From sequence record OQ870555.1: a stretch of DNA of 64,000 bases; one strand, given 5' to 3'. The first letter of the stretch is position 1; every line of letters starts with the position of its first letter. The notes under the pieces were generated by a model. It was not told where the DNA came from. It did no database searches and saw nothing but the letters and a program-made list of their open reading frames with translations. Both the position numbers and the translations under genes were made by a program. The stretch comes from Escherichia phage PECP14. Below are positions 2,471 through 40,990 of the stretch, in pieces.

Positions 2471-3238
2471 TTATTCAGCAGCCGCAGCTTTTGCATCCAG
2501 TTTAGCACGCTTAGCGGCACCATCATAGTCCTTAGCAACCAGACCACGACGAGACAGCATAGATTTAACACCGCGCTCAGACTTACCAGTTTTCTCAGCG
2601 ATCTCAGCAACAGTCATGTTAGCCAGATCCAGACCTTCTAACAGATCTTCACGAGTTTTAGCACTTGAAGTTTCCTGTACCGGCATAGCAGCGATACGAC
2701 CTTCACGAAGCAGACTCAGAGCTTTACCACGGATCTGCTTAATATTGCGACCGAAGTGAGCAGCGATAGCTTCAATAGTAGCACCAGCAACAACCTGATT
2801 AACGAAATCAGTTTCTTCGTCAGGAGTGAAGGAACGAACAGCAGCAGCTTTTTCGGTTGGCTTAACAGAAGCAGTCATTTCCAGACTCAGGATCTTACCC
2901 TGTACCTGCTTAGCACCGAACTGACCACCAGCTACAGCAGCAGCGATTTCAGCGTAAGTATACTGACCAGCATGAGCGTTCAGGAAATCAACCAGTTCAG
3001 CTTCCTGCTCAGGAGTCCACGGGGATTTCTGTACTTCGTTTGCTTTCTGTACTTCGAAACCTTCTTTACGCAGCTTAGAGCCAACAGAGCGAGCGGTAAC
3101 GTCTTTGCCAGTCTCGGTAGCCAATTCAGCAGCGATAGCAGCTACTTGTTCTTGAGAGATTACAGCAACACCCAGAGCAGTGGCTTTTGCTTTCAGAGAC
3201 TCGGTTACACCTTCTACGTTCCAGTTCAGTTTAGACAT
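2471..3238 (-). CDS. hypothetical protein with three HTH-like repeats
   Basis: three repeated segments (YAEIAAAVAGG.., IEAIAAHFGRN.., VAEIAEKTGKS..); E. coli-optimal codon bias. Confidence 0.5.
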   Translation of the reverse strand: MSKLNWNVEGVTESLKAKATALGVAVISQEQVAAIAAELATETGKDVTARSVGSKLRKEGFEVQKANEVQKSPWTPEQEAELVDFLNAHAGQYTYAEIAAAVAGGQFGAKQVQGKILSLEMTASVKPTEKAAAVRSFTPDEETDFVNQVVAGATIEAIAAHFGRNIKQIRGKALSLLREGRIAAMPVQETSSAKTREDLLEGLDLANMTVAEIAEKTGKSERGVKSMLSRRGLVAKDYDGAAKRAKLDAKAAAAE

Positions 3239-4013
3239 TATTATTTTTCTCCAATAGTTCTTTAATCGACAGGATTTCTATCCCATTCGTTTCGGCTTTC
3301 TTATAAGATGAGGAAGAACGTTTTGATTCATCCTCACAGATTAGGTATTTGACGTCTTTGGTAACGGACTTCTTAACCGTATATCCTAGACTTTCTAAAT
3401 AGTTTGTTGCATCCGTTCGATTTGCAAAATCTTGCAAAGATCCGGTAATACAGACCGTGATTCCATTTGGCTGGGTAACTAAATCATCTGTAATGATGAT
3501 ATCCGCTTTAGCACCTCGAATACCTGTTGAGAATTTCCACGGTAATTCAATAACATCCTTGCCTTGTGGGGAATTTAGCCAGGTTTTGTAATTTTCTCCA
3601 GCCTTGCCGTCAGCCTTCACATCGTGGAAGCTAGTGCAATTTTGGGACAGTTTCTTTGCTGCAACCTCTCCAATAAGAGGAATTCCTAAAGAACCGAGAA
3701 CTGAACCAAAGTCAGTGTCTCCGCGAACCTTAGTATTTAACTCGCTAATCAATTTAGCGGCAACCTTGCTACCCACAGCTCCGACCAAATCTTCTTCGGT
3801 CAGGTAAAACAGTTCTGAGATCTTAGTCAGCTCCAGCTTCTCAATAGTTTTCGGGCCAAAGCCCTTTAACTTCATTTTTGTGCAGAAGTTCTCGATTAAC
3901 TTACTTGATTGCGCTGGACAGTTGGACTTATTCCTACAGAATAATTGCCCGTTGACAAGATCTAGCTTAGAACCACAAGAGGGACATTGTGTTGGAATTT
4001 CGATTTTCATCAA
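3231..4013 (-). CDS. NAD-dependent DNA ligase, C-terminal fragment (Zn-finger/HhH/BRCT)
   Basis: CPSCGSKL..C..C zinc finger, HhH-like GIPLIGEVAAKKL, BRCT-like tail. Confidence 0.7.
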   Translation of the reverse strand: MMKIEIPTQCPSCGSKLDLVNGQLFCRNKSNCPAQSSKLIENFCTKMKLKGFGPKTIEKLELTKISELFYLTEEDLVGAVGSKVAAKLISELNTKVRGDTDFGSVLGSLGIPLIGEVAAKKLSQNCTSFHDVKADGKAGENYKTWLNSPQGKDVIELPWKFSTGIRGAKADIIITDDLVTQPNGITVCITGSLQDFANRTDATNYLESLGYTVKKSVTKDVKYLICEDESKRSSSSYKKAETNGIEILSIKELLEKNNNV

Positions 4014-4040
4014 ATTTCTTCCTTATCAATTTATATAAAT

Positions 4041-4069
4041 ATTATAACAAGTATTTAAGCATTTAGCAA
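4041..4069 (-). promoter_or_regulatory. leftward early promoter inside the ligase gap
   Basis: minus strand TTGCTA-17-TATAAT + TATAAATTGATAAGGAAG directly upstream of the ligase C-terminal ORF. Confidence 0.5.
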
Positions 4070-4212
4070 CTACAATTTTAACTAACTTTGCTTACCCTCG
4101 CCATAACTTTCTATCCCTCAACTGAATGATAATAGTATATACCTAAGCGGCGAAAATGTCAATAACCACTTTATAATTCCGACATGGTAAACGGGTAGCA
4201 AAGGGTTACGAA

Positions 4213-5184
4213 TTAGTCGTATACTCGCTCTACTATACAAGGGATTACACCACCAGCACGAATCACTCGAATCTGGCAACCGATCTCTAAATCGAGAGCG
4301 TTAATATAATCAACGTTATTAAGAGTTGCTTTAACGATTGTGGCATCATCAATAATCACCGGCTCGAAATAACCAACTGGAGTTACTTTACCAGAAGCCC
4401 CTACTTGCCATTCAACTTTAACAAGTGTGGTAATTTCGCCTTCTTCATCCTCTTTAATAGCAAATGCGCCACGAGGAAATTTATTAGTCCAACCTTCACG
4501 GAAGAATTTGTTGTTATCATTAATACGAACAACTTTACCATCTGTCGGAATCCATTTAAAGAAGGAACGAACATTAACAACTGTCAAGAAGTTCTCATTC
4601 TCTAGCCAAAGCATATCTTTTAAATAGGCTTCTGTAATACCGACTGTTTCCGCTGAACACTGGATACCATATGCAACGAAGATTAAACCACCTTCACCAA
4701 TACGTTGGATGAAATCATCGCTGTCTTTCAGGTTAATAGCACCTGAAGCGTAGTTACGTTTGTTCTCTACTTCTTTAGTAATGAGAACTTCACCAGTGAT
4801 TTGAGTTGGAACTTTTTGGGAAATAGTTTTAGGGATGTTCAGCATTTTAACATTATGCGTTACATCATTCCCTAGAATACCGTTACCACGAGTTAACGCT
4901 TGAACAAATTCACCATTAATATATAATAGAGAAATCGCACAACCATCTAACTTATCAGTTTCAACCTGACCTAATGGATTGAATGGAGCTTTATCACCGC
5001 GACCGTAATAGACTTTCTGCAAAGAATACATACGATACAAATGAGGAATATCACCTTTCGGTCCGATTTCTTCCTCCAGTGGGAATCTTTTAATCAGACG
5101 ATCATATTCTTCATCGGAAATAAGACTCATTCCCTGGTAGTACGCTTCTTGACAACGTTTGATAAAGTCTTTTACATTATTCAT
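4213..5184 (-). CDS. NAD-dependent DNA ligase, N-terminal adenylation fragment
   Basis: KLDGCAIS (KxDG adenylation motif), OB-fold region; separate ORF upstream of the C-terminal fragment. Confidence 0.7.
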   Translation of the reverse strand: MNNVKDFIKRCQEAYYQGMSLISDEEYDRLIKRFPLEEEIGPKGDIPHLYRMYSLQKVYYGRGDKAPFNPLGQVETDKLDGCAISLLYINGEFVQALTRGNGILGNDVTHNVKMLNIPKTISQKVPTQITGEVLITKEVENKRNYASGAINLKDSDDFIQRIGEGGLIFVAYGIQCSAETVGITEAYLKDMLWLENENFLTVVNVRSFFKWIPTDGKVVRINDNNKFFREGWTNKFPRGAFAIKEDEEGEITTLVKVEWQVGASGKVTPVGYFEPVIIDDATIVKATLNNVDYINALDLEIGCQIRVIRAGGVIPCIVERVYD

Positions 5185-5395
5185 CGTCTGCGATTTCCAT
5201 TTTGAGTTCTTTGTTATACTGAGCAGCCATACCAGCTAAATCAGCAGCTTCTTTCAACCACGCATCTTTGTACGCTTTCTGGTTTGGAGTGCCGATACTA
5301 TCCTGGTAATTGATTCTTGCTATGGAGAGCAAATTAAGTTTTGCTTGAATCTTTGGAAGTGTTATTGTCATTGCCATAATTGATCCTCTCATCAA
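5177..5395 (-). CDS. hypothetical protein
   Basis: ORF with early-type promoter immediately upstream (5407-5435); overlaps ligase start by 8 nt. Confidence 0.4.
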   Translation of the reverse strand: MMRGSIMAMTITLPKIQAKLNLLSIARINYQDSIGTPNQKAYKDAWLKEAADLAGMAAQYNKELKMEIADDE

Positions 5396-5406
5396 TTTAT
5401 ATAAAT

Positions 5407-5435
5407 ATTATATATGAAAACTGAGTCGAAAGCAA
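5407..5435 (-). promoter_or_regulatory. leftward early promoter cassette
   Basis: minus strand TTGCTT-17-TATAAT + ATAAATTGATGAGAGGA. Confidence 0.5.
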
Positions 5436-5462
5436 GTACATTTATAAAGAAAAAGCCAAGAA

Positions 5463-5771
5463 CTAGGCATTCTTGGCTTTGAGTTCTTCAGCTCGTTTCT
5501 GTACTTCATGCAAGACCTCGGATTCACTGAGGATTTGCGTAAAAGCGTAGAATAGCTGTGATGTAGTTTCTAGGGTATAAGGAAAAGAGAAGCCGGATTT
5601 CGTTGGAAACCACTCTCCAGTAATATCTTGGAGCCAGTAACGAATTCCCATGTATAGATTCCCACGAAATTCAGATACGGTTAGTCTTACTTGTTCCCCC
5701 TCCTTCTCCCAAAGCATGATGGACTGGTCGTCAACGTGTCCTTCATAGTTTTGATTTACCTGATCGCTCAT
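5463..5771 (-). CDS. hypothetical protein
   Basis: ORF in gene-dense minus-strand block; hairpin terminator just downstream (5794-5812). Confidence 0.5.
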   Translation of the reverse strand: MSDQVNQNYEGHVDDQSIMLWEKEGEQVRLTVSEFRGNLYMGIRYWLQDITGEWFPTKSGFSFPYTLETTSQLFYAFTQILSESEVLHEVQKRAEELKAKNA

Positions 5772-10700: not shown

Positions 10701-11196
10701 AACAATACTCCTATGTTGGTTATTCGGATATCTTTCTTTAGGACTATTCAAAAGAATAGAACAACTATTACTACCATTTACACAAACATTAATCATCATC
10801 AAGCAGTATGAATAAGTTATCATACCTCAGTGCTGCGCTCTCTTAACTCTTATCCAGATCAGAACCTAGGTCATTGGCCGCTAAGCCGATTCTGATTGCC
10901 CTCACTATCCTATTGGTAGGTGGCTACTGGACGTGTCACCATTCGCTGCTCTTTTCGTTCGCACCCCCATATAAAGCTCTGCCTATATAACGAGCTAAAT
11001 ATGCACGGTTTGGATTTACCTTTCCGAATTCAGGGTACGCAGATCACTTAATTGATAATTAACTAATGCAGTATAAACACTAGTAATAGTTAAAACAACC
11101 CTTAATGGGGCAGCCTAACTGTTCCGTATTGCGGATTGTAAACAAGAAAAATTAGCAAAATCAATTTTTACTAATGTCTCTCAATTCAATATAAAT

Positions 11197-11225
11197 ATTA
11201 TATCAAGATTTTGAGCATCCTGCAA
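11197..11225 (-). promoter_or_regulatory. leftward early promoter followed by long leader
   Basis: minus strand TTGCAG-17-TATAAT; ~500 nt ORF-free before the helicase ORF. Confidence 0.45.
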
Positions 11226-11316
11226 GTAAAATTTTTCCGAAGGTGCTATCAGTGTCTTTGAGCACAGAGAAAACCGAGTCAAAACGACTCGGTAATCAGG
11301 ATTGAGCTAATGAAAA

Positions 11317-30381: not shown

Positions 30382-30456
30382 CGGGGTGTAGTCTAAGGGA
30401 TAGGCAGGAGTCTTCTAAATTCCTTTATGCAGGTTCGAATCCTGTCACCTCGGCCA
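30382..30456 (+). tRNA. tRNA-Arg(TCT)
   Basis: hand-folded cloverleaf; AC loop CTTCTAA; T-arm GCAGG-TTCGAAT-CCTGT; CCA encoded. Confidence 0.6.
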
Positions 30457-30694
30457 ATTTTATTAACTGCTAGGAAAATAAAGTGAAAACACGATATATA
30501 GTAAAAGTAGTAGGTGAACATTCACAAGTAAATACCACCGATGTTACAGCGCTAGCATTTGAAGTAGTCTCCGGTATAGTCATATTTCATAACGGAGATA
30601 TCAAAGCTCCTGAATTTGCTGTGGATGCTAGCCTGTTTATTTCTGCAACTAAAGTAACTGTAGTAGCTAACTCTTCTAAATAATAAGGAAATAT

Positions 30695-31639
30695 ATGTTT
30701 ACTAAAAACACTAAAGAACTGACTTCCGATCAAAAAGTAATTCGTACTATTAAACGTTGGGGTGTTGGTGCTGTAGTTGGTCTTGGCGCTCTTATTCTGG
30801 CTCTCAATTCCTATACAGTTGTTCAGGACGGTACGGTTAAAACTCAGACTTTCCTGGGTAAAGTTAGTCCTAATCCTGTATTGCCGGGGTTCCATATTGT
30901 CAACCCATTCGCCTCTTTTGATACTTTTAGTACGAAAGATATTTCTATGAAACTGGATAAACTTCAGGTTCCTAGCCAGGATAAGTTTAAGTCTACAGTT
31001 GACATTACCGTTATGTTGCAGTTTGATGGTGCTAAAGCTCCTATGAACCGTGTTAACGCAGGTACTCAGGATCAAGCTCTGAACAAGTACGTTGAAGAGA
31101 AGATGCTGTCTACGATTCGTGAGTTTGGTAAGTCTGTACCAAAAGCACAAGATCTGTTCGACGCTAAGATTCAGGCTCAACTGCAAACCGCTATTCAGCA
31201 AGAAGTAGAAGAGTATGCGCGTCCTTATGGTTACACCGTTAAGCAAGTATTCCTTCAGGATATTACTCTGCCACCGGTAATCATGGAACAGGTACAGAAC
31301 ACCAAAGTTCGTGAAGAACAAGTTAACGCTGCAAAAGCTGAACTGGCTCGTGTTGAACAAGAAGCACAGCAGAAAGTTAAGCAAGCTGAGGCAGATCGTT
31401 CCGCTCGTGAAAACATGGCAGTAGCTAACGAACGTGACGCAGATGCTAAACTGTACGCAGCTAAGAAAGAAGCTGAAGCTAACGCCGCTCTGCAACGTAC
31501 CATTACTCCTGAAATGATTCGTTGGAAGCAGCTGGAAGTTGAAATGCTTCGTGCTGAAAAATACCAAGGGGGTGTACCACAGACTGTTGTCGGTACTGGC
31601 TACGATGGTCAAATGATCATGGATATGCGTAACAAGTAA
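30695..31639 (+). CDS. SPFH/band-7 (prohibitin/HflK-like) membrane protein
   Basis: N-terminal TM helix, SPFH core, long Ala/Glu/Gln coiled-coil tail; two terminators downstream. Confidence 0.65.
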   Translation: MFTKNTKELTSDQKVIRTIKRWGVGAVVGLGALILALNSYTVVQDGTVKTQTFLGKVSPNPVLPGFHIVNPFASFDTFSTKDISMKLDKLQVPSQDKFKSTVDITVMLQFDGAKAPMNRVNAGTQDQALNKYVEEKMLSTIREFGKSVPKAQDLFDAKIQAQLQTAIQQEVEEYARPYGYTVKQVFLQDITLPPVIMEQVQNTKVREEQVNAAKAELARVEQEAQQKVKQAEADRSARENMAVANERDADAKLYAAKKEAEANAALQRTITPEMIRWKQLEVEMLRAEKYQGGVPQTVVGTGYDGQMIMDMRNK

Positions 31640-31662
31640 TAGTTACACGTAATCTTCGAACC

Positions 31663-31698
31663 AAGCCCGCGTTTCCTTCGAGAGCGCGGGCTTTTCTG
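31663..31698 (+). terminator. intrinsic terminator after SPFH gene
   Basis: AGCCCGCG...CGCGGGCT stem + TTTTCTG. Confidence 0.6.
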
Positions 31699-31714
31699 TA
31701 TTTAAGGCAAAAGA

Positions 31715-31754
31715 AAAAGCCCCTTACCTTTCGGCAGGGGCTTTTGTTTTTTGG
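31715..31754 (+). terminator. second, possibly bidirectional terminator
   Basis: AAAAAGCCCCT...AGGGGCTTTTGTTTTTT at the convergence point of plus and minus genes. Confidence 0.6.
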
Positions 31755-31959
31755 TTTAGAACCATACTCTCTTGTTACAACAACCACTCATACGGGAGAC
31801 CAATCTTGACTGAAAATCTACTCTAGGGGGCAGGATAAGAGTAGGCTTAAAGGCAAACGGATTGAACACCGGTATTTGTGTAAACATTGCTGGAGAGCAA
31901 CAACGTGCTACAGGTATTGGGCAGCACGAAACAGATTTTCTGCAACACATAATTCCTCC

Positions 31960-32376
31960 TTAGGAGTTATTACCGCCATTTTGAGCTTTTGCAACTTGGC
32001 TTTGGCAGAAGCTATTAAACTTACCCATAAGTGCTACAAGCTGTTTCCCATCCTCTGTCTTTGCGAAGTCTTCGAAAAGGGCTAGTACTGCCTGTCCTTC
32101 CGCAGAAACCTGCGGTTGTTGGGTTTGTTGCTGAACTTGCTGCTGAGGCACCTGTTGCTGCATTTGTTGAGGCATTTGCGACTGCCCGCTCATTTGCTGC
32201 ATCATTTGCATAGGACTCACACTTCCAGGGTTTTGCTGGAGTTGCTGCTGCATCTGTTGCGCTTCTGCTAAACGCTGTTGCAACTGTTGTAGGTAAGGGT
32301 TATCCAGACCCGGAATGGGCTGCTGAGAGCCCATTGGTTGATTAAATCCGTTGTTCACAAAACCATATTTACTCAT
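31960..32376 (-). CDS. glutamine-rich low-complexity protein
   Basis: over 30% Gln with poly-Q(M/P) tracts; convergent with neighbouring plus-strand genes. Confidence 0.45.
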   Translation of the reverse strand: MSKYGFVNNGFNQPMGSQQPIPGLDNPYLQQLQQRLAEAQQMQQQLQQNPGSVSPMQMMQQMSGQSQMPQQMQQQVPQQQVQQQTQQPQVSAEGQAVLALFEDFAKTEDGKQLVALMGKFNSFCQSQVAKAQNGGNNS

Positions 32377-32398
32377 AATGGGCTCCTCCCCTTAAAGA

Positions 32399-33400
32399 TT
32401 AGGCTGGTACTTTAGCCTGTAGAGCTGCTAGAGTCTGAGTAATTGCACCCAGGCTTACAGCGATTTGATTGATTACCTGACCGTTTGCACCGCTACCTGC
32501 AGCGATTGCTTCACGCAGACGGCATTCATTCAGTTCGTCTTGGATACGCGCAGTAGTTACACCAGCAATCGCAGTCTGAAGTTCGCAGCAGCACTCAGCA
32601 AGCTGACGTTCGATAGCGTTCTGGTTAGCACACATCTGAGCCTGAACAGCGGCAAACTGGTTGTTAGTCTGAAGAGACTGCTGGAAAGCAATCTGGGCAG
32701 AGTCAAACTTGTCTTGTGCACGAGCGATCTGGTTAGCAGCGAAAGCTTGATCCATCTGGCGAGAAAGATCGAACTGACCCTGAATAACGTTACGAGTTTC
32801 CTGACAGATCTGGTTGGACAGGTTAGCACCAGTACCATACACAGTAGTCAGAATCTGTTGAGTGCTAGAAGCTTGAGCAGCACCTACACCATTAACAGCG
32901 CTCAGAACAGCACCAGTACCTTGATTCGCTTCGGTACGAGCAGTGTTGATTGCAGCTAGAATACTTGCAGTATCCTGGTTAGATAGGATAGCATCCACAG
33001 CAGTTCCCTCAGCGGCAACACCAGCACCACGTCCGAAACCACCGAAACCACCGAATCCGCCTGTTAATAGAGCACCAATCAGGATAGCTCCGAATAGACC
33101 CATACCTTCACCGCCGAAAGCACCATTTGCTACTGCTGGGTAACCACCCATCAGACCTGGGAAGCCGCTAGTGAATACGTTTACTGGTTCTTGCATTTTA
33201 TGTTTCCTATGTTTATGACAGCCCTCATGGTCGTCATCTTCATCATCTTCATCGTCATCATCGTGATCACGATGTTTCTTTTCGTAGGCCTTGACCTTCT
33301 CCCACTTATGTTTGTCTGATTCCTCATGACGTCTCAGTTCTGCTGCGACTTCACTGACGGTCTCAGGTTTCTTAGTTGCTTCTTCTGTCATTTTTGACAC
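32399..33400 (-). CDS. hypothetical protein: acidic/His-rich N-term, Gly-zipper segment, Ala/Gln-rich domain
   Basis: DDDDEDDEDDDHEGCHKHRKHK then GGFGGFGGFGRG; TTGACA-type promoter and AGGAGGTG SD upstream. Confidence 0.5.
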   Translation of the reverse strand: MSKMTEEATKKPETVSEVAAELRRHEESDKHKWEKVKAYEKKHRDHDDDDEDDEDDDHEGCHKHRKHKMQEPVNVFTSGFPGLMGGYPAVANGAFGGEGMGLFGAILIGALLTGGFGGFGGFGRGAGVAAEGTAVDAILSNQDTASILAAINTARTEANQGTGAVLSAVNGVGAAQASSTQQILTTVYGTGANLSNQICQETRNVIQGQFDLSRQMDQAFAANQIARAQDKFDSAQIAFQQSLQTNNQFAAVQAQMCANQNAIERQLAECCCELQTAIAGVTTARIQDELNECRLREAIAAGSGANGQVINQIAVSLGAITQTLAALQAKVPA

Positions 33401-33459
33401 CTCCTAGTATATAGAAAATGTGTGTCTCTTTGATCACTCATCTATAACATATACTTTAC

Positions 33460-33500
33460 ACTACCCCAGCGAAAATGTCAAGGGGTCTTTAAAAATTGCC
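33460..33500 (-). promoter_or_regulatory. leftward sigma70-like promoter for the convergent module
   Basis: minus strand CCTTGACATTTT...TAAAGT, then TAGGAGGTG SD before 33400 ATG; coordinates approximate. Confidence 0.4.
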
Positions 33501-33597
33501 CCCGGATTTTTAGTGGGATAACAATTTCTGGACCTCACCACTCACCTGCTACCCTTAAGTGCCCTGCGATTTTCCACTAAAAAGTTTAAAAATTCGA

Positions 33598-33626
33598 TTG
33601 CTTGAATGCTAAATTCTCTGTATAAT
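33598..33626 (+). promoter_or_regulatory. early promoter cassette
   Basis: TTGCTT-17-TATAAT + TTATAAATTTGAGAGAGGAA. Confidence 0.55.
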
Positions 33627-33656
33627 ATATTTATAAATTTGAGAGAGGAATCAAAT

Positions 33657-34712
33657 ATGATTAAGACTGGTCTAGTAATTGGTAAGTTCGCACCATTAAC
33701 GCGTGGTCATATTAACCTAATAAACACAGCAGCAACTATGTGTGAACGAGTTATTGTTGTAGTTAGTCATGATAATCGTTGGCTGGATAAGCAGAACACA
33801 CGTGATCAGGAAGTATTACAGTTAAAGAATCGACTTCGTTGGTTAGAACAAACTTACGCGGATATTGAGCACGTTTCGGTAGAGTACATTATTGAAGATG
33901 ATATTCCTGAATATCCGAATGGTTGGCCGGAATATGCTAGAATCCTTAATGAAAATTATGGACATTTGCCTGAGATCACCATTTTCTCTAGCGAACTAGA
34001 CTATGATGCAGAATATAAGAAATATCTGCCGAAGTTTGGTCATTATATTGTAGATTCTGATCGGACTCGTGTTCCAATCTCAGCTACAATGATTCGTAAT
34101 GATCTTATGAAGTATTGGGAGTTTCTTCCTAGCGTAGTTCGTAAAGATTACGTGCGTAAGGTTGTAATCATTGGGACTGAAAGCTCAGGCAAAACAACTT
34201 TAACAAAGTACCTTGCGAAATTATATAATACTTCGTGGGTAGAAGAATATGGTCGTACTTACTGCGAAGTTGATCTAGTTGGTAATGAAGAACTCCTGAC
34301 TAGCGAGGACTATAATAAAATTGCATTCAGGCACAAAGAGCTAGAGTTTGAGGCAGAACGTACTGCAAATAAGATCATGTTTGTAGACACAAATGCTTTC
34401 ATTACAGAGTTTTATCACAGACTTTACGAGCATCGTAAAAATCCGGTTGTAACAGCTATTGCTAAAGAAGAGCATTATGATTTAGTTATAGTTTTAGCAC
34501 CTACTGTTAAGTGGGTAGATGATGGTTTACGTATTAACTCCGATCGTTCAATTACTTCTGAACTGTTCGAGCAGATGAAGAAAGAATTTCCTAATCAGTT
34601 TCCAGAAGGGCGTACTGTATATATTGACTCCCCGGACTATAAGGTTCGTATGGACGAAGCAGTAAACGCAGTAGACTGGCTGATTCATCACTTTAACGTT
34701 GGAGAGTTTTAA
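33657..34712 (+). CDS. NadR-like NMN adenylyltransferase / ribosylnicotinamide kinase
   Basis: GKFAPLTRGH (HxGH nucleotidyltransferase) and GTESSGKTTL (Walker A kinase). Confidence 0.65.
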   Translation: MIKTGLVIGKFAPLTRGHINLINTAATMCERVIVVVSHDNRWLDKQNTRDQEVLQLKNRLRWLEQTYADIEHVSVEYIIEDDIPEYPNGWPEYARILNENYGHLPEITIFSSELDYDAEYKKYLPKFGHYIVDSDRTRVPISATMIRNDLMKYWEFLPSVVRKDYVRKVVIIGTESSGKTTLTKYLAKLYNTSWVEEYGRTYCEVDLVGNEELLTSEDYNKIAFRHKELEFEAERTANKIMFVDTNAFITEFYHRLYEHRKNPVVTAIAKEEHYDLVIVLAPTVKWVDDGLRINSDRSITSELFEQMKKEFPNQFPEGRTVYIDSPDYKVRMDEAVNAVDWLIHHFNVGEF

Positions 34713-34713
34713 T

Positions 34714-35391
34714 ATGACTAACTATCTTGTAAATGACTTTAAAAACTGGAAACCTTTGGAATATCTGTGGCTGTTTATAGCAGTCGCCTTTATTAGTTTA
34801 GCTAACTATAATGGTACAGCTCTAGATTGGGCTACTGCAATAACCAACGTGGTTTGTGTTATTCTGGTTGCAAAAGGACGTGTTTCCAACTATATTTGGG
34901 GCTTAGTTGGTGTTCTTACCTATGGTATTACAGCTTTAAACGCAGATCTTTATGGTAACGCTGCACTAAACCTGCTATACTACGTTCCTATGCAGTTTTA
35001 TGGAATGTACTTATGGCATAAAAATAAGCCAAGTAATCTGCCAGATGTTCCAACTAAGGTTCTGACTAAAGCCCAAGCTCTGCTGACTCTAGGGATTCTA
35101 GCAGTAGCCACGTTAGGGTATGGTAGTTTCTTAGCTACTACGGCTGATCCATTCCCAATGTTGGATGCATTTACTGCGGTAGGTAGTGTGATCGCTATGT
35201 GGCTTATGGTTAAGCAGTATGCCGAGCAGTGGCTGATCTGGATTGCTATTAACATTGGTACTGTATATATTTGGCTTGTAACTGCCCAGTCTACGGGTGC
35301 TTCTTATGCAATCCTAGCAATGTGGCTGGTGTTCTTAGGTAACTCTATTATGGGAGCCTATAAAGGCTACTTTGTAAGAGTTAACAAATAA
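34714..35391 (+). CDS. pnuC: PnuC-like nicotinamide riboside transporter
   Basis: polytopic membrane protein with PnuC-like W/Y-rich helices; directly follows NadR-like gene. Confidence 0.6.
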   Translation: MTNYLVNDFKNWKPLEYLWLFIAVAFISLANYNGTALDWATAITNVVCVILVAKGRVSNYIWGLVGVLTYGITALNADLYGNAALNLLYYVPMQFYGMYLWHKNKPSNLPDVPTKVLTKAQALLTLGILAVATLGYGSFLATTADPFPMLDAFTAVGSVIAMWLMVKQYAEQWLIWIAINIGTVYIWLVTAQSTGASYAILAMWLVFLGNSIMGAYKGYFVRVNK

Positions 35392-35396
35392 AGTAG

Positions 35397-35425
35397 TTAT
35401 AGCCCTCTAAGCGAGGGCTATTATA
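35397..35425 (+). terminator. hairpin terminator after pnuC
   Basis: ATAGCCCTC-TAAGC-GAGGGCTAT. Confidence 0.5.
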
Positions 35426-35438
35426 CAGAAATTTTCAC

Positions 35439-35467
35439 TTGCTTTATATAGAAAATTTCTGTATAAT
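35439..35467 (+). promoter_or_regulatory. early promoter cassette
   Basis: TTGCTT-17-TATAAT; near-identical leader to the 33598 copy. Confidence 0.55.
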
Positions 35468-35497
35468 ATATTTATAAATTTGAGAGAGGAATCAAAC

Positions 35498-35794
35498 ATG
35501 AAACACATTGTACTTGCATTGACTCTAGTATCTACTTCTGTATTTGCTGCTCCACAACAGGAACTTTGTCAAGTTCAAGTTTGTAATAAGCTAGAACGAT
35601 TTACTCTAGACATTTGGTCGCACATTAAAGATAATATGGGTGAACAGTGTTTTGATATTGTTCTGCCAAAAGAACAAGCTGTTCCTGGGGCTGTTCTCAG
35701 CTCAGAATCACGTTGGTGGCAGGGTTCTTCTATCAACCCAACTAAGAAGTCAGTGACACGTATCAAACAAGTATATCAGTGCAATGTTCAGTAA
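35498..35794 (+). CDS. small secreted Cys-containing protein
   Basis: signal peptide MKHIVLALTLVSTSVFAAP. Confidence 0.45.
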   Translation: MKHIVLALTLVSTSVFAAPQQELCQVQVCNKLERFTLDIWSHIKDNMGEQCFDIVLPKEQAVPGAVLSSESRWWQGSSINPTKKSVTRIKQVYQCNVQ

Positions 35795-35802
35795 AATTTC
35801 AC

Positions 35803-35831
35803 TTGCTTAATGCCGAAATTTTCTGTATAAT
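35803..35831 (+). promoter_or_regulatory. early promoter cassette preceding tRNA-Ser
   Basis: TTGCTT-17-TATAAT. Confidence 0.55.
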
Positions 35832-35845
35832 ATATTCATAAATTC

Positions 35846-35939
35846 GGAAGATTAACCCTAAAGGTAAGGGAGCTGTTTGCTAAACAGCCAGTAGCTGTGG
35901 AGACACGGTGTGCCAGTTCGAATCTGGCATCTTCCTCCA
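35846..35939 (+). tRNA. tRNA-Ser(GCT)
   Basis: acceptor GGAAGAT/ATCTTCC; AC loop TTGCTAA; long variable arm; follows promoter. Confidence 0.7.
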
Positions 35940-35944
35940 AATTT

Positions 35945-36022
35945 GGTTCTCAAGCTCATTTGGTATGAGCCGTCGCCTCATAAGCGAAAGGTAGGTAGGT
36001 TCGAATCCTCCGGGAGCCACCA
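35945..36022 (+). tRNA. tRNA-Met/Ile2(CAT)
   Basis: D-stem GCTC/GAGC; AC loop CTCATAA; T-loop TTCGAAT; CCA encoded. Confidence 0.55.
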
Positions 36023-36039
36023 ATTAACTAGGAGACTAT

Positions 36040-36225
36040 ATGTCTAGATTCTATGAAATGAAGAAAGCATTAGAAGAATGTCGGTGTAAGGATTGTCATG
36101 GTGGTGGTAGGCAGGATGATGCAGAACCTGGGGATATTTTCTGTAGAGAATGGGAATGTCCTACATGTAAAGGTACTGGTATCAACCCTGAATATGCAAT
36201 TTGTCTAGACATTGAGCGAGGCTAA
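36040..36225 (+). CDS. small Cys-rich (zinc-ribbon-like) protein
   Basis: CRCKDC...CREWECPTC. Confidence 0.4.
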   Translation: MSRFYEMKKALEECRCKDCHGGGRQDDAEPGDIFCREWECPTCKGTGINPEYAICLDIERG

Positions 36226-36565
36226 GATGGATATTTTTACTACTCCGGCAATAAACCTTTTAGGTGTTGGCTTGTTCCAAGCTACGGTGTATCGTACTGA
36301 TGATTCTACTGATGTGGTAACGTTCATCGTACCTGAGTTCTTCCTAGAAAAGTTCTTTGAAGAGTTTGAGCAGTTCCGTGAAGAACACAATGCTCATTCC
36401 GATATGGAAGATCTAGCAGCTATGTTCCCTGTGGTTTACGGCTATATCTTTGAAGGTAATGGCCTAGATCTTAATAAATCTGAACTCGTTGAACTTAATT
36501 GGGGCATCAATTTTGAAGTTGGCTCTCCATTCCCTCGATATTTCCAGGGTTTAGAGATTCGCTAA
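36212..36565 (+). CDS. hypothetical protein
   Basis: ORF. Confidence 0.45.
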   Translation: MSEAKMDIFTTPAINLLGVGLFQATVYRTDDSTDVVTFIVPEFFLEKFFEEFEQFREEHNAHSDMEDLAAMFPVVYGYIFEGNGLDLNKSELVELNWGINFEVGSPFPRYFQGLEIR

Positions 36566-36573
36566 GATTACAT

Positions 36574-36650
36574 GGGGGTGTAATCGAATTGGCATAGGTA
36601 CTGGACTTAAAATTCAGGTTTTGTGGGTTCGAATCCCACCACCCCTACCA
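36574..36650 (+). tRNA. tRNA, anticodon TAA (isotype uncertain)
   Basis: acceptor GGGGGTG/CACCCCT; T-arm GTGGG-TTCGAAT-CCCAC; AC loop CTTAAAA with short variable loop. Confidence 0.5.
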
Positions 36651-36665
36651 AATTAAGGAAATAAA

Positions 36666-36788
36666 ATGAAAGCTATTAAGAAAGCACTACGTAAATTTAT
36701 GTACTGTCGTTTTCATAGCATCAAGACTTCAACTAATGGTACGACTTATGATCGCTATGATCCTAAGTTTGGCTTACATTCTAAATAA
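36666..36788 (+). CDS. small hypothetical protein
   Basis: 40-codon ORF with AAGGAAA SD after a tRNA. Confidence 0.3.
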   Translation: MKAIKKALRKFMYCRFHSIKTSTNGTTYDRYDPKFGLHSK

Positions 36789-36801
36789 CTGGAGATAATA
36801 A

Positions 36802-37008
36802 ATGGCTAATCCTGAAATTACTGCACAGCGCTTTATGCTGAAAGGTATTATTGCTGAAGCAGGCATGACAGAAGAAGTTGCAGATTTTCAAAAGCAGTTC
36901 CTAAATATTCTCACTCAAGCCAAAGAGCTAGGAGAGAAAGAACATGGCGCGGCTATTATGGCAATCACATTGGTTGGGCTTGATCTGGCAGAAGAATCAG
37001 GAGTTTAA
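36802..37008 (+). CDS. hypothetical protein
   Basis: ORF. Confidence 0.4.
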   Translation: MANPEITAQRFMLKGIIAEAGMTEEVADFQKQFLNILTQAKELGEKEHGAAIMAITLVGLDLAEESGV

Positions 37009-37038
37009 CTCCTCCAAGCAGAAATTTTAAAAATGTAC

Positions 37039-37068
37039 TTGCTTTTTACTTAAGATTTCTGCTATAAT
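37039..37068 (+). promoter_or_regulatory. early promoter cassette
   Basis: TTGCTT-18-TATAAT. Confidence 0.5.
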
Positions 37069-37098
37069 AGTTATATAAATTGATGAAGGAGTTAACGA

Positions 37099-37374
37099 AT
37101 GTCAAAACGTGTTACTGCAACTGGTGTTGAAAGTGCTGTTTGTAAATCCTGGGGTGGCTGGGAAGGTGAGATTGAATGGCTTTATTTCTACGATGTAGAA
37201 CTTCTGCCGGAAGTCAAAGCTAAATGTGTGGAAGCTGGTATGGCTCCTGATGCAAAGGCTGATATCGAAATCACCATGACTAAGCTAGAAGGTCGTGTAA
37301 TTACGCTCAATGATGATTATGAAGAAGTGTTCGAGCTTCCATTCAAACTGAGTGTCACCCCTAGCTTCGAGTAA
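37099..37374 (+). CDS. hypothetical protein
   Basis: promoter cassette + AAGGAG SD. Confidence 0.45.
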   Translation: MSKRVTATGVESAVCKSWGGWEGEIEWLYFYDVELLPEVKAKCVEAGMAPDAKADIEITMTKLEGRVITLNDDYEEVFELPFKLSVTPSFE

Positions 37375-37410
37375 CTGATATAGCACTGAGCAAGTTCTTT
37401 AAAATTTGAC

Positions 37411-37439
37411 TTGCTCAGTCCTTCAAAACTTGATATAAT
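37411..37439 (+). promoter_or_regulatory. early promoter preceding tRNA cluster
   Basis: TTGACTTGCTC / TATAAT. Confidence 0.5.
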
Positions 37440-37503
37440 AGTTATCTAATTTGGAAAACATATTTAAAAGTGTTTAAACTAGTATTTGAATATTTCTAAA
37501 TAT

Positions 37504-37594
37504 GTTGGATTAGTATCGTAGAGGTAGCGAAGCAGACTGTAAATCTGCCGACTCGGAAGGGTCTCGGGTGGTTCGACTCCATCATCCAACACCA
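37504..37594 (+). tRNA. tRNA-Tyr(GTA)
   Basis: AC arm GCAGA-CTGTAAA-TCTGC; long variable arm. Confidence 0.6.
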
Positions 37595-37601
37595 AATTTA
37601 A

Positions 37602-37678
37602 GTCCTGTTAGACAAACTGGTAAAGTCACTACCCTTTCAAGGTAGGATTTGCGGGTTCGATCCCCGCACAGGACGCCA
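37602..37678 (+). tRNA. tRNA-Glu(TTC)
   Basis: acceptor GTCCTGT/ACAGGAC; AC loop CTTTCAA; T-arm GCGGG-TTCGATC-CCCGC. Confidence 0.7.
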
Positions 37679-37687
37679 AATTCTGCA

Positions 37688-37763
37688 TTCCTAGAGTGTT
37701 ACTGGACAGCATGTCGGTCTCCAAAACCGTACGGTCTAGGTTCGAGTCCTAGTAGGTTTGCCA
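37688..37763 (+). tRNA. tRNA-like, anticodon CCA (Trp?), non-canonical acceptor
   Basis: AC arm TCGGT-CTCCAAA-ACCGT and T-arm CTAGG-TTCGAGT-CCTAG are good but acceptor stem does not pair. Confidence 0.35.
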
Positions 37764-37769
37764 ATATTT

Positions 37770-37844
37770 GCACCTTTAGCTGAGATGGATTAGCGCTTGC
37801 CTGAAGAGCTTGAGAGGTTGGATCGTTACCAACGGGGTGCACCA
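37770..37844 (+). tRNA. tRNA-Phe(GAA)
   Basis: acceptor GCACCTT/GGGGTGC; AC loop CTGAAGA; T-arm GTTGG-ATCGTTA-CCAAC (atypical loop). Confidence 0.5.
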
Positions 37845-37846
37845 AT

Positions 37847-38134
37847 TTGAAGGAGATGCTGATGCATCCTGAAAACTTCTTTATTTACTGTGCGGATAAG
37901 TCACTGAAACGCAGAATTAACAAAGTCTATCATTATCGTGCTAGTCAACAGCCTTATGTTTATGCTTTTGATGGAGAAACCATTCCACTAGAGCAGTTGG
38001 CTTGTGATTACATGGTATTGAAGAACTTTGATGAGACAAAGATCTCAAGCGTTCATAATCGACAGAACCCATTAACGTGGAAGTATAAGAAGAAAAAGAA
38101 AGGCATCATATTTCTGAAAAATGTAGTTGCTTAA
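37847..38134 (+). CDS. hypothetical protein
   Basis: ORF after tRNA cluster. Confidence 0.4.
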   Translation: MKEMLMHPENFFIYCADKSLKRRINKVYHYRASQQPYVYAFDGETIPLEQLACDYMVLKNFDETKISSVHNRQNPLTWKYKKKKKGIIFLKNVVA

Positions 38135-38155
38135 CCGCTTAAAGTTCTGTATAAT
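38127..38155 (+). promoter_or_regulatory. early promoter cassette
   Basis: TTGCTT-17-TATAAT. Confidence 0.5.
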
Positions 38156-38184
38156 TATTACATAAATTGAACTGGAGAAGCAAC

Positions 38185-38409
38185 ATGACAGAACAAGAAT
38201 TGAAAGAACGTAAGCTGGTAATGCTTCGCTTACTAAACATTTTCTCTGGTATGGATGGTGGTATTGACTTCGTTAATCTACGTTGCTTTGTAGAAGAAGC
38301 AGAAGGTGAGGCTATCACTAGGATTCTTAAACATATGGGTTTGTTATTAGATGTTGCTAATGTGGCTACTCAATATAAGCTCGAAGATTTACCGGAGCGT
38401 GTTAAATGA
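38185..38409 (+). CDS. hypothetical protein
   Basis: promoter cassette + GGAGA SD. Confidence 0.4.
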   Translation: MTEQELKERKLVMLRLLNIFSGMDGGIDFVNLRCFVEEAEGEAITRILKHMGLLLDVANVATQYKLEDLPERVK

Positions 38410-38597
38410 AAATGTTAGTTAAATTTAAGTGTTGTGGTTCTGAACATATTTTCACTCGTTATAGAGAGTTTAAGATGTGTGAGTGTGGTAAGTCAGGCTA
38501 TGATGCTGGAGATGGCTATTATGCTAGATCTATAGGACATTATAAAGATCTAGAGTTTACTAATCTCGAAAAGCAAGATAAATCGACCGTTGGCTGA
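38406..38597 (+). CDS. small Cys-containing protein
   Basis: ORF overlapping previous stop. Confidence 0.4.
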   Translation: MKMLVKFKCCGSEHIFTRYREFKMCECGKSGYDAGDGYYARSIGHYKDLEFTNLEKQDKSTVG

Positions 38598-38659
38598 ATG
38601 GCTTAGGCGGAGGCCTGCAAAACCTCCTTATGTGAGTTCGAATCTCATGCGGTCGTCCA
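38584..38659 (+). tRNA. tRNA-Cys(GCA)
   Basis: acceptor CGACCGT/GCGGTCG; AC loop CTGCAAA; T-loop TTCGAAT. Confidence 0.6.
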
Positions 38660-38666
38660 AATTTTA

Positions 38667-38749
38667 GGGTCGTTAGCCAAGCGGTTTGGCGGTGGACTGT
38701 TAATCCATGTCGAAAGACAACGTAGGTTCGAATCCTACACGGCCCGCCA
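38667..38749 (+). tRNA. tRNA-Asn(GTT), extended variable region
   Basis: acceptor GGGTCGT/ACGGCCC; AC arm GTGGA-CTGTTAA-TCCAT; T-arm GTAGG-TTCGAAT-CCTAC. Confidence 0.55.
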
Positions 38750-38852
38750 TATTCTGTGTAGAGTTAAGTAAACCGGTAGCCAACCAGCTATCATTACTGA
38801 TATCGAATTCAGTCACAGATACCATTTTTCATTAACAACTGAGGAAATAGAT

Positions 38853-39038
38853 ATGACAACTCGTGCAATTGCTCGACTAGAAGCTGATCGTGATAATCTG
38901 ATTAATAATATTAAGGTTCGTGGTAATATTATTAAGGCTCTGAAAGCTGAACTTCTTGAAGAACTTCAAGGTCAAGTAGAGCGTCGTGAAGCTCTAAAAG
39001 AGGTTGAGGAAGCTATCGAAAAACTCAAAACTGAGTAA
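38853..39038 (+). CDS. small coiled-coil protein
   Basis: ORF with GAGGAAA SD. Confidence 0.4.
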   Translation: MTTRAIARLEADRDNLINNIKVRGNIIKALKAELLEELQGQVERREALKEVEEAIEKLKTE

Positions 39039-39047
39039 ATAAATTAT

Positions 39048-39124
39048 GCGATCGGGGCTGGCTTGGTAATGGTACTCCCCTGTCACGGGAGAGAATGTGG
39101 GTTCGAATCCCATCGGTCGCGCCA
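39048..39124 (+). tRNA. tRNA-Asp(GTC)
   Basis: AC arm CTCCC-CTGTCAC-GGGAG; T-arm GTGGG-TTCGAAT-CCCAT. Confidence 0.7.
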
Positions 39125-39138
39125 ATTTAGGCTATAGT

Positions 39139-39330
39139 ATGACACGCAAATATTTAGTTATTAAAGGTGAACATGCAGGACAAACTGTATACTCATTGAA
39201 ATTTCATGATTATGGTTTAGCCTCAGATGATACTCGATATACTGGAATAGAGCATACAAGTGTAACATTAGACGAAACAGGTGATTATCCTAGTTTTACT
39301 ATTCCTAAAGATTTCTTAAAAGAGATTTAA
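39139..39330 (+). CDS. hypothetical protein
   Basis: start moved downstream of tRNA-Asp. Confidence 0.4.
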   Translation: MTRKYLVIKGEHAGQTVYSLKFHDYGLASDDTRYTGIEHTSVTLDETGDYPSFTIPKDFLKEI

Positions 39331-39331
39331 T

Positions 39332-39408
39332 GCTTCCATAGCTCAACTGGTTAGAGCTACCGCCTCTTAAGCGGAGGGTTGAAGGTTCAAGTCCTTCTGG
39401 GAGTACCA
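39332..39408 (+). tRNA. tRNA-Lys(CTT)
   Basis: D-stem GCTC/GAGC; AC loop CTCTTAA; T-arm GAAGG-TTCAAGT-CCTTC. Confidence 0.6.
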
Positions 39409-39611
39409 AACAAATAGAGTAAAGGCTACAGTAGGTGCACCCTTACGGACTGCTACACCGGACTCTATTCATTAACAAACATTCTAGCGTGGTGGAGAGG
39501 GGACACCAGCTTGCCGAGGGTAGAAGCTCGTTCGATTCGAGTGAAAGAATGGTTCTCGTAAATCCGCACAAGTGATAGCAGGTTCAAGTCCTGCCTAGAT
39601 TGACTTATTAT
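39409..39611 (+). other. degenerate tRNA-like elements
   Basis: two T-arm-like hairpins (CTCG-TTCGATT-CGAG; GCAGG-TTCAAGT-CCTGC) with no complete cloverleaf. Confidence 0.3.
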
Positions 39612-39685
39612 GCGTTCGTAGTTAAAAGGTATAATTTTTGGTTGCCAACCAGAAGTTGAGGGTTCGATTCCCTCCGACCGCACCA
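39612..39685 (+). tRNA. tRNA-Gly(GCC)
   Basis: AC arm TTTGG-TTGCCAA-CCAGA; T-arm GAGGG-TTCGATT-CCCTC. Confidence 0.6.
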
Positions 39686-39933
39686 AATTTAGGTTTCTGC
39701 TTCCTAGAGAACGAACTCCTAGATAAACAAGGTGATGAGTTTCCGGCCGGTTCTAGTCGCTGAAAATCCTCCCGACCAGGTAGGTGTAAGTAAACGAAAG
39801 TTTACTTATTAAGTAAGTCCGACACATCGGCGGGTGTGTTCTAGTACTTAAAGAAGGTCTAGCAAACTTTCTCGCTAGCATGAGTTGATAGCTCGGTGAC
39901 TTACCTAATAAGTAAATTTATTAAAAAATGTAG

Positions 39934-39962
39934 TTGCTATTTAGCTTAATTCTCTGTATAAT
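39934..39962 (+). promoter_or_regulatory. early promoter preceding tRNA-Pro/Met cluster
   Basis: TTGCTA-17-TATAAT. Confidence 0.5.
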
Positions 39963-39994
39963 ATATTTTATAAAGTGAGTTAACAAAGAATATT

Positions 39995-40072
39995 CTCCGT
40001 GTAGCTCAGTTTGGCCAGAGCGTTTCGTTTGGGGCGATAGGGTCGGGGGTTCAAATCCTCCCACGGAGACCA
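39995..40072 (+). tRNA. tRNA-Pro(TGG)
   Basis: acceptor CTCCGTG/CACGGAG; D-stem GCTC/GAGC; AC loop TTTGGGG. Confidence 0.7.
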
Positions 40073-40078
40073 AACAAT

Positions 40079-40156: not shown

Positions 40157-40177
40157 ATTCAATAGAAGGATTTCGAA

Positions 40178-40342: not shown

Positions 40343-40344
40343 AT

Positions 40345-40423: not shown

Positions 40424-40440
40424 ATTTAAAGGAATTTGTT

Positions 40441-40965: not shown

Positions 40966-40990
40966 ATTAACTCAAAATAAGGAATTGCAA

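What the first reader, a model, noticed from the sequence alone, without database searches (positions are those of the whole stretch)
3231..5184. NAD-dependent DNA ligase split into two ORFs with a promoter in the gap
The adenylation domain (KLDGCAIS; 4213-5184) and the Zn-finger/HhH/BRCT part (3231-4013) are separate ORFs ~200 bp apart. The gap contains a full early promoter cassette on the coding strand (4041-4069) and an SD, so the C-terminal part can be expressed on its own. This is either a two-subunit ligase or an insertion that split the gene.
Basis: partly seen in the sequence, partly recalled or inferred. Interest (0 to 1): 0.6.

Follow-up and report, generated by a model that had tools for sequence, protein, structure and literature searches.

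The report
T5-type two-subunit NAD-dependent DNA ligase

Summary
On the minus strand, ORF A (4213-5184, 323 aa) carries domain Ia, the adenylation domain (KLDG lysine K78) and the OB fold. ORF B (3231-4010, 259 aa; the start is the ATG at 4010, not the TTG at 4013) carries the Zn finger, HhH and BRCT domains.

All of this is already known. The window is a T5-like phage. The T5 reference genome annotates ligA, 'promoter P-K 28b', 'promoter P-K 28a' and ligB in this order. PDB 9HU3 and 9I5I (2026) are the 'PR1 phage heterodimeric DNA ligase' on nicked DNA and match both ORFs end to end.

Both halves are under strong purifying selection and diverge in step. The break lies in the OB/Zn-finger linker, and no domain is lost.

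Two observations I did not find in any annotation or paper I could read:
- Uncultured T5-like phages keep an unsplit 555-586-aa orthologue at the same locus.
- All nine split loci examined have a near-consensus promoter just upstream of ligB.

Verdict: a real, functional two-subunit ligase, already known, of low interest.

The parts
5452..5480 (-). Terminator-like hairpin that ends the upstream gene (PC4-like regulator, 5463..5771)
   Evidence: 12-bp stem followed by a T run. T5 annotates a promoter just after the equivalent gene, and the sequence is nearly identical in T5.
5407..5435 (-). Promoter of the ligA transcription unit (TTGCTT-17-TATAAT)
   Evidence: Read. It is the same sequence as the annotated T5 promoter upstream of ligA. 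The scan missed it because only 3 of 6 bases of the -35 hexamer match the consensus.
5177..5377 (-). 66-aa gene of unknown function between that promoter and ligA; its end overlaps the ligA start by 8 nt; absent from T5
   Evidence: phrog_8267, E 6e-44, residues 7-72 of the listed ORF. T5 and S114 have only an 87-bp spacer here.
4213..5184 (-). ligA: catalytic subunit A (domain Ia + nucleotidyltransferase with K78 in KLDG + OB fold), 323 aa
   Evidence: Pfam PF01653 and PF03120. E 2e-106 to PDB 9hu3_A. AF2 model pLDDT 87, TM 0.82-0.84 to 9hu3_A and 9i5i_A. dN/dS 0.045 against T5.
4134..4162 (-). Upstream gap promoter, equivalent to T5 'P-K 28b' (TTGACA-17-TATACT, 11 of 12)
   Evidence: Annotated in T5 and S114 at the same place. 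Conserved in 7 lineages.
4041..4069 (-).
   Evidence: Annotated in T5 and S114. It belongs to a family of more than 20 similar promoter cassettes in the window.
4018..4024 (-). Shine-Dalgarno sequence AAGGAAG of ligB
   Evidence: Read. Conserved in T5 and IME260.
3231..4010 (-). ligB: DNA-binding subunit B (C4 Zn finger C9/C12/C25/C31 + HhH + BRCT), 259 aa
   Evidence: Pfam BRCT. E 1e-79 to 9hu3_B; aligns to E. coli LigA 402-529 and T. filiformis LigA 400-653. dN/dS 0.091 against T5.
2471..3238 (-). D5 gene; its start overlaps the ligB stop by 8 nt, so it is probably co-transcribed from the gap promoters
   Evidence: coordinates. Annotated as D5 in T5. 44% identical to the gene that follows the unsplit ligase in L009.

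Best explanation
These are ligA and ligB of a T5-like phage (family Demerecviridae). They encode the two subunits of a heterodimeric NAD+-dependent DNA ligase.

**Subunit roles.** Subunit A (Ia + NTase + OB) carries the chemistry. By analogy with bacterial LigA it reacts with NAD+ to form the K78-AMP intermediate, transfers AMP to the 5' phosphate at a nick, and seals it. Subunit B (Zn finger + HhH + BRCT) supplies the DNA-binding half of the LigA clamp. The two associate non-covalently on nicked DNA and rebuild the architecture of single-chain LigA.

**Origin.** The gene was once continuous. It is interrupted exactly in the OB/Zn-finger linker by a roughly 200-bp module made of a stop codon, two tandem strong early promoters (the P-K28b and P-K28a of T5), a ribosome-binding site and a new start codon.

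**Transcription.** ligA is transcribed from its own promoter upstream (5435..5407). With no terminator in the gap, read-through from ligA plus the two gap promoters should transcribe ligB, D5 and probably the DnaB-like helicase.

**Shown here:** domain content, split point, conservation, purifying selection, promoter motifs and their annotation in T5, existence of a solved heterodimer in a relative, and unsplit syntenic orthologues.

**Inferred:** activity of this particular pair, promoter use in this phage, and co-transcription of the downstream genes.
For: [quoted passage not shown] T5 RefSeq lists ligA, promoter P-K 28b, promoter P-K 28a and ligB in this order and spacing.
- **Solved heterodimer.** PDB 9HU3 and 9I5I, 'PR1 phage heterodimeric DNA ligase in complex with 21-mer nicked DNA', match A and B full-length.
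- **Clean split point.** A residue 320 corresponds to E. coli LigA 390 and B residue 3 to E. coli 402. Against the unsplit orthologues only a few linker residues are missing.
- **Catalytic residues in the LigA alignment**: K78, R99, E132, D215 and K244. Of the five domain Ia positions, Y15, D24, Y27 and D28 match E. coli Y22, D32, Y35 and D36, and Y16 replaces H23. E. coli K290 is R220 here.
- **Zn-finger cysteines.** Four are present in B.
- **Selection.** dN/dS is 0.045 (A) and 0.091 (B). The amino-acid identities of A and B track each other in five phage pairs.
- **Distribution.** Of the 120 best A homologues in 5.8 billion proteins, 119 are 310-337 aa and one is a 240-aa partial. The split is present in Klebsiella, Providencia, Proteus and Vibrio members of the family.
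- **Promoters.** The tandem promoter pair lies upstream of ligB in all seven cultured lineages examined, with 93-96 nt spacing.
- **Synteny of unsplit orthologues**.
Against: - No biochemical data for this phage or for T5 itself were found in the searchable literature. The paper behind 9HU3/9I5I could not be read, so subunit affinity, stoichiometry and the activity of A alone are unknown to me.
- Promoter activity here rests on consensus matches and on the T5 annotation, not on transcript mapping in this phage.
- The Pfam hits for the Zn finger and HhH are below their cut-offs.
Confidence: 0.93

Rival explanations
1. The two products work independently. A would be a stand-alone minimal ligase. 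B would be a separate DNA- or nick-binding or BRCT scaffold protein of the replisome, possibly made in excess from its own strong promoters.
For: Each gene has its own promoter or promoters. In Vibrio phage pVp-1 the halves are 1.1 kb apart with other genes between them. ligB is translationally coupled to D5, not to ligA.
Against: The relative's two chains were solved as one heterodimer on nicked DNA. A and B diverge at the same rate and co-occur in all nine split loci examined. From established work on bacterial LigA, cited from memory, fragments lacking Zn/HhH adenylylate themselves but barely seal nicks.
Confidence: 0.05
2. The gene is broken: a decaying pseudogene, or a sequencing or assembly error that interrupts one ORF.
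For: Two adjacent ORFs that together make one known protein are the classic signature of a frameshift or nonsense artefact.
Against: The interruption is a 202-bp non-coding module, not a point change. A's frame has 7 stops in the gap, and ligB is out of frame. The same junction is colinear in 521 independent phage genomes. dN/dS is 0.045 and 0.091. A solved heterodimer exists.
Confidence: 0.01
3. The gap is removed or bypassed (group I/II intron, intein-type element, ribosomal bypass or frameshift), so that a single-chain ligase is made.
For: T5-like and T4-like phages carry homing endonucleases and introns in replication genes, and T5 has several HNH genes nearby.
Against: - No Rfam family matches in or around the gap.
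- The gap RNA is no more structured than shuffled sequence (z = -1.16).
- The gap consists of two promoter cassettes of a type repeated more than 20 times in the window.
- The small ORFs found in the gap of other lineages are unrelated to each other and match no endonuclease family.
- The PDB entries hold two separate chains.
Confidence: 0.01

Closest known systems
Bacteriophage T5 ligA (T5.116) / ligB (T5.117) with promoters P-K 28b and P-K 28a (NC_005859, AY543070)
   Same: Same gene order, same ORF lengths (323 and 259 aa) and same 202-bp gap. Both proteins are 96% identical, the gap is 98% identical, and both promoters are identical in their hexamers.
   Different: The window carries an extra 66-aa gene between the ligA promoter and ligA. 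Otherwise there is no meaningful difference.
Providencia phage PR1 heterodimeric DNA ligase, PDB 9HU3 and 9I5I (released January and February 2026)
   Same: Same two-chain architecture. About 57% (A) and 56% (B) identity, with full-length alignment. The AF2 model of A superposes at TM 0.82-0.84. The gap also has tandem promoters.
   Different: It belongs to a different genus (Priunavirus). The PR1 record also annotates a terminator after ligA, which the window lacks.
Bacterial single-chain LigA (E. coli LigA, PDB 2OWO; T. filiformis, 1DGS)
   Same: Same domain set in the same order (Ia, NTase, OB, Zn, HhH, BRCT), the same catalytic motifs and four Zn-finger cysteines.
   Different: The phage enzyme is two polypeptides broken between OB and the Zn finger. 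It is compact, 582 aa in total against 671, with most of the shortening in the NTase domain. Identity is only about 25-30%.
Unsplit compact LigA of uncultured T5-like phages (P0154 557 aa on L009; P0157 566 aa on L010-L012)
   Same: Orthologous position between the PC4-like gene and D5, DnaB, primase and PolA. 42-43% identity to A and 33-36% to B.
   Different: A single ORF with a continuous 8-14-residue linker. No strong sigma-70-like promoter was found in L009; L010 has a single 10-of-12 match inside the ligase ORF about 50 bp upstream of the linker codons.

Membership tests
NAD+-dependent DNA ligase (LigA family) | Nucleotidyltransferase domain with the motif I lysine (KxDG) and motifs III, IV and V | tested here: met
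   PF01653 at 83 bits against a cut-off of 27. K78 (KLDG), R99, E132, D215 and K244 align with E. coli K115, R136, E173, D285 and K314 and are invariant in 25 homologues. E. coli K290 is R220 here.
NAD+-dependent DNA ligase (LigA family) | N-terminal domain Ia with the NMN-binding residues that confer NAD+ specificity | tested here: met
   Y15, D24, Y27 and D28 correspond to E. coli Y22, D32, Y35 and D36, and Y16 replaces H23, by way of the T. filiformis and E. coli alignments. Y15, Y27 and D28 are invariant. Two N-terminal helices appear in the model. The role of these residues is cited from my memory of E. coli LigA mutagenesis. Cofactor use itself was not tested.
NAD+-dependent DNA ligase (LigA family) | OB-fold domain after the NTase domain | tested here: met
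   PF03120 at 77 bits against a cut-off of 32.9, residues 252-321. Aligns to E. coli LigA 284-390.
NAD+-dependent DNA ligase (LigA family) | C4 zinc finger, HhH domain and C-terminal BRCT domain | tested here: met
   C9, C12, C25 and C31 are present in B. B 3-122 aligns to E. coli 402-529 and B 3-251 to T. filiformis 400-653. Pfam BRCT is at 35.7 bits against a cut-off of 21.3; the Pfam Zn and HhH hits are below cut-off.
NAD+-dependent DNA ligase (LigA family) | All domains on one polypeptide | tested here: not met
   Two ORFs lie 202 bp apart, out of frame, with 7 stops between them. This is the one departure from canonical LigA.
T5-type heterodimeric ligase (LigA/LigB of Demerecviridae) | Separate A (Ia-NTase-OB) and B (Zn-HhH-BRCT) genes in the early replication module, next to D5 and the DnaB-like helicase | tested here: met
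   Gene order in the window equals that of T5, S114, IME260, PM135, PR1 and pVp-1.
T5-type heterodimeric ligase (LigA/LigB of Demerecviridae) | Physical A-B complex that seals nicks | not testable with these tools
   Known only by homology to the PR1 heterodimer structures.
T5 early promoters P-K 28b / P-K 28a | Tandem sigma-70 promoters at this position with the T5 sequence | tested here: met
   The hexamers and spacers are identical to T5 over both promoters, with one substitution next to the -10 of the downstream one. Activity was not tested.

The most novel reading that the evidence does not exclude
The fission may not be a single historical accident. In the wider group of T5-like phages, including uncultured ones, split and unsplit forms of the same compact ligase interleave in an A-domain tree: at least 5 state changes were needed in every one of 200 NJ bootstrap trees. 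All nine split loci examined carry a near-consensus sigma-70 promoter immediately upstream of ligB.

The reading not excluded is that the OB/Zn-finger linker has been cut repeatedly by acquisition of strong promoters serving the downstream replication genes (D5, helicase, primase, polymerase). On this reading the ligase tolerates the cut because its two halves assemble on DNA anyway. The separate strong promoters might also set a B:A ratio above one, which could matter for how these phages handle the site-specific nicks in their genomes.
Probability: 0.3. Interest if true: 0.4.

Novelty: already known. Interest (0 to 1): 0.15.

Why it matters
For this window it matters little. The arrangement has been annotated in the T5 reference records (AY543070, NC_005859), and structures of the heterodimeric enzyme from a related phage were released in 2026.

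Its general interest is as a natural example of a multidomain DNA-repair enzyme that works as two non-covalently associated pieces. That is relevant to ligase engineering and to how genes split.

The comparative points found here would give a tidy case of gene fission driven by promoter insertion, if a proper phylogeny confirms them. They are the unsplit orthologues at the same locus in uncultured relatives, and a strong promoter always sitting at the break.

Tried and rejected
- **Intron, ribozyme or other RNA element in the gap.** No Rfam hit at E <= 1, and the fold is no better than shuffles. Rejected.
- **Read-through or in-frame fusion.** Seven stops in A's frame, and the ligB ATG is out of frame. 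Rejected.
- **Mini-ORF MARVSKVS between the two promoters, with a good Shine-Dalgarno sequence.** Absent in IME260, PM135 and pVp-1. Treated as chance.
- **53-aa ORF at 4118..4279 overlapping the ligA end.** No family match. Treated as spurious.
- **Small ORFs between the halves in Proteus and Vibrio phages as remnants of the splitting agent.** They are unrelated to each other, match no endonuclease or mobile-element family, and leave no trace in the window gap.
- **Insertion or fusion variants among close relatives.** None among 521 colinear records.
- **Papers on the T5 or PR1 ligase or on the P-K 28 promoters.** Eight searches found only genome-announcement-level mentions of 'subunits A and B' (one further call, 13, failed on a too-short term).
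- **My first promoter-family pattern search had the wrong spacer length and was uninformative.** The blastn replaces it.
- **The NJ and parsimony count of split/fusion events.** Suggestive only. Internal branches are short, and sister-pair supports are about 33-35%.
Full report
**What is there.** On the minus strand the window has two ORFs. The first is 323 aa (4213..5184). The second is listed as 260 aa from a TTG at 4013. Its real start is the ATG at 4010, giving 259 aa. That start matches the annotated ligB of T5 and of Salmonella phage S114 and residue 1 of a solved homologue.

ORF A matches the Pfam NAD-ligase adenylation domain (83 bits) and the ligase OB-fold domain (77 bits). ORF B matches BRCT above cut-off, and HhH and the ligase zinc finger below cut-off. 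Sequence searches against solved structures fill in the rest. A residues 214-320 align with E. coli LigA 284-390, and A 78-136 with 115-177. B residues 3-122 align with E. coli LigA 402-529, and B 3-251 with Thermus filiformis LigA 400-653. The two ORFs therefore jointly cover Ia, NTase, OB, Zn, HhH and BRCT, and the break falls between OB and the zinc finger.

The catalytic lysine K78 (KLDG), R99, E132, D215 and K244 align with the E. coli catalytic residues. Y15, D24, Y27 and D28 of domain Ia match E. coli Y22, D32, Y35 and D36, and Y16 replaces H23. Most of these positions are invariant in 25 homologues. B has four cysteines in the expected zinc-finger spacing.

**The gap.** From the stop of A to the ATG of B there are 202 bp.
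- A second and better one lies upstream: TTGACA-17-TATACT at 4162..4134.
- AAGGAAG at 4024..4018 is a plausible ribosome-binding site.
- No terminator-like hairpin is found in the gap.
- In the reading frame of A the gap has seven stops, and the ATG of B is in another frame.
- There is no Rfam match, and the RNA folds no better than shuffled sequence (z = -1.16).

**What it is.** The window is a T5-like phage. The region is 98-99% identical to many Salmonella and Escherichia T5-like phages, and 458 phage records match it. [quoted passage not shown]

The T5 reference genome lists, in this order and spacing, ligA (T5.116), 'promoter P-K 28b', 'promoter P-K 28a' and ligB (T5.117), followed by D5 and the DnaB-like D6. 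The original GenBank record AY543070 does the same, and so does Salmonella phage S114. Papers mention the T5 'ligase subunits A and B' in passing.

**Is it a working two-subunit enzyme?** The closest solved structures are two-chain entries whose chains match A (E 2e-106, residues 4-323) and B (E 1e-79, residues 1-255). An AlphaFold model of A (pLDDT 87) retrieves them first, at TM 0.82-0.84. Their titles are 'PR1 phage heterodimeric DNA ligase in complex with 21-mer nicked DNA containing phage nick sequence' (9HU3, released 2026-01-14) and the same with random sequence (9I5I, released 2026-02-18). Chain B is identical to the ligB product of Providencia phage PR1, a member of the same family. 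I could not find the associated paper.

Evolutionary evidence agrees.
- Against T5, dN/dS is 0.045 for A and 0.091 for B.
- In five pairwise comparisons the amino-acid identities of A and B track each other: 0.96/0.96, 0.73/0.73, 0.57/0.56, 0.60/0.57 and 0.53/0.55.
- The 602-bp junction is colinear in 521 phage records.
- The split is present in Klebsiella (Sugarlandvirus), Providencia (Priunavirus), Proteus (Novosibvirus) and Vibrio (Ermolyevavirinae) members of the Demerecviridae.

**The promoters are part of the design.** The gap is 98% identical between the window and T5, whereas 43% (A) and 20% (B) of synonymous sites differ. Both promoters are found just upstream of ligB in all seven cultured lineages examined, with 93-96 nt between their -35 elements.

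This holds although the material between ligA and the promoters differs. It is nothing in T5-like, Klebsiella and Providencia phages, unrelated small ORFs in Proteus and Vibrio phages, and additionally a DprA-like gene in Vibrio phage pVp-1. The downstream cassette belongs to a family with more than 20 similar copies in the window, which is the T5 early-promoter type.

ligA has its own promoter upstream (TTGCTT-17-TATAAT, 5435..5407) after a terminator hairpin, as in T5. ligB overlaps the D5 start by 8 nt. The gap promoters therefore most likely serve ligB, D5 and the genes beyond. That step is inferred.

**Is there an uninterrupted relative?**
- Among phage records, everything down to about 50% identity to A is split. 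The next matches, at about 31% identity, are full-length LigA of jumbo phages.
- Of the 120 best homologues of A in the 5.8-billion-protein collection (47-96% identity), 119 are 310-337 aa and one is a 240-aa partial.
- The exhaustive search of 50%-identity representatives did find unsplit compact proteins of 555-586 aa at 39-46% identity by that tool's measure, or 37-43% by BLAST. These align to A and to B end to end and have an 8-14-residue linker where the window has its gap.
- Two of them lie on metagenome contigs with the T5 gene order: PC4-like protein, ligase, D5, DnaB-like helicase, primase, PolA. The flanking proteins are homologous to the window's: 45% for the PC4-like protein, 44% and 37% for D5, and 29% for the helicase.

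The gene was therefore once continuous and was cut in the linker, without loss of a domain.

**One fission or several?** In a neighbour-joining tree of the A region, split and unsplit forms interleave. All 200 bootstrap trees need at least five changes of state, with a mode of eight. Each of two fused proteins is closer to a split neighbour (50% and 47%) than to the other fused one (39%). Those split neighbours (L013, L014) have the same synteny and a single near-consensus promoter just before ligB, TTGACT-17-TATAAT and TTGACA-17-TATAAT.

This suggests repeated fission, or re-fusion, linked to promoter insertion. The tree is poorly resolved, with sister-pair supports of about 33-35%. 'Split' was also called from protein length alone for most taxa. 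I treat this as a lead, not a result.

**Verdict.** The locus is the known ligA/ligB pair of T5-like phages with the known P-K 28b and P-K 28a promoters between the genes, and a homologous heterodimer has been solved on nicked DNA. Novelty: already known. Interest: low. The comparative points above are the only parts I did not find annotated or described, and I could not read the paper behind 9HU3/9I5I.

Noticed in passing
window 5177-5377 (-): A 66-aa gene of unknown function (phrog_8267) lies between the ligA promoter and ligA and overlaps the ligA start by 8 nt. T5 and Salmonella phage S114 have only an 87-bp spacer there, so this is a small lineage-specific insertion.
   Followed up: partly
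L009 8001-9674; L010 5790-7490 (also L011, L012): Uncultured T5-like phage contigs carry an unsplit 557-566-aa orthologue of ligA plus ligB at the syntenic position (PC4-like, ligase, D5, DnaB, primase, PolA).
   Followed up: yes
L013 6001-8113; L014 6001-7832: Environmental split variants differ in gap layout: a 123-aa ORF plus one promoter, or a 104-bp gap with a hairpin and one perfect TTGACA-17-TATAAT. NJ bootstraps need at least 5 split/fused state changes, which hints at recurrent fission or re-fusion.
   Followed up: partly
L002 3469-4604 (Vibrio phage pVp-1) compared with L001 1869-2501 (Proteus phage PM135): A DprA-like gene lies between ligA and ligB in pVp-1 but upstream of ligA in PM135. 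The region around the ligase break appears to be a hot spot for gene shuffling.
   Followed up: no
window 4085-4111 (-): A mini-ORF (MARVSKVS) with a good Shine-Dalgarno sequence follows the upstream gap promoter. It is not conserved in IME260, PM135 or pVp-1, so it is probably a by-product of the promoter cassette layout.
   Followed up: yes
window, more than 20 sites (e.g. 41327-41381, 37027-37090, 39909-39990, 11181-11235): A family of similar promoter cassettes (AT-rich upstream region, TTGC.., TATAAT, conserved leader) is spread over the window on both strands. The downstream gap promoter is one member.
   Followed up: partly
window 30382-45022 (+): A cluster of 28 tRNA genes, as expected for the tRNA region of T5-like phages.
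   Followed up: no
window 3000-5500 compared with MG065642.1: The best DNA match (99.4%) is an unannotated record named 'Campylobacter phage A148'.
   Followed up: no
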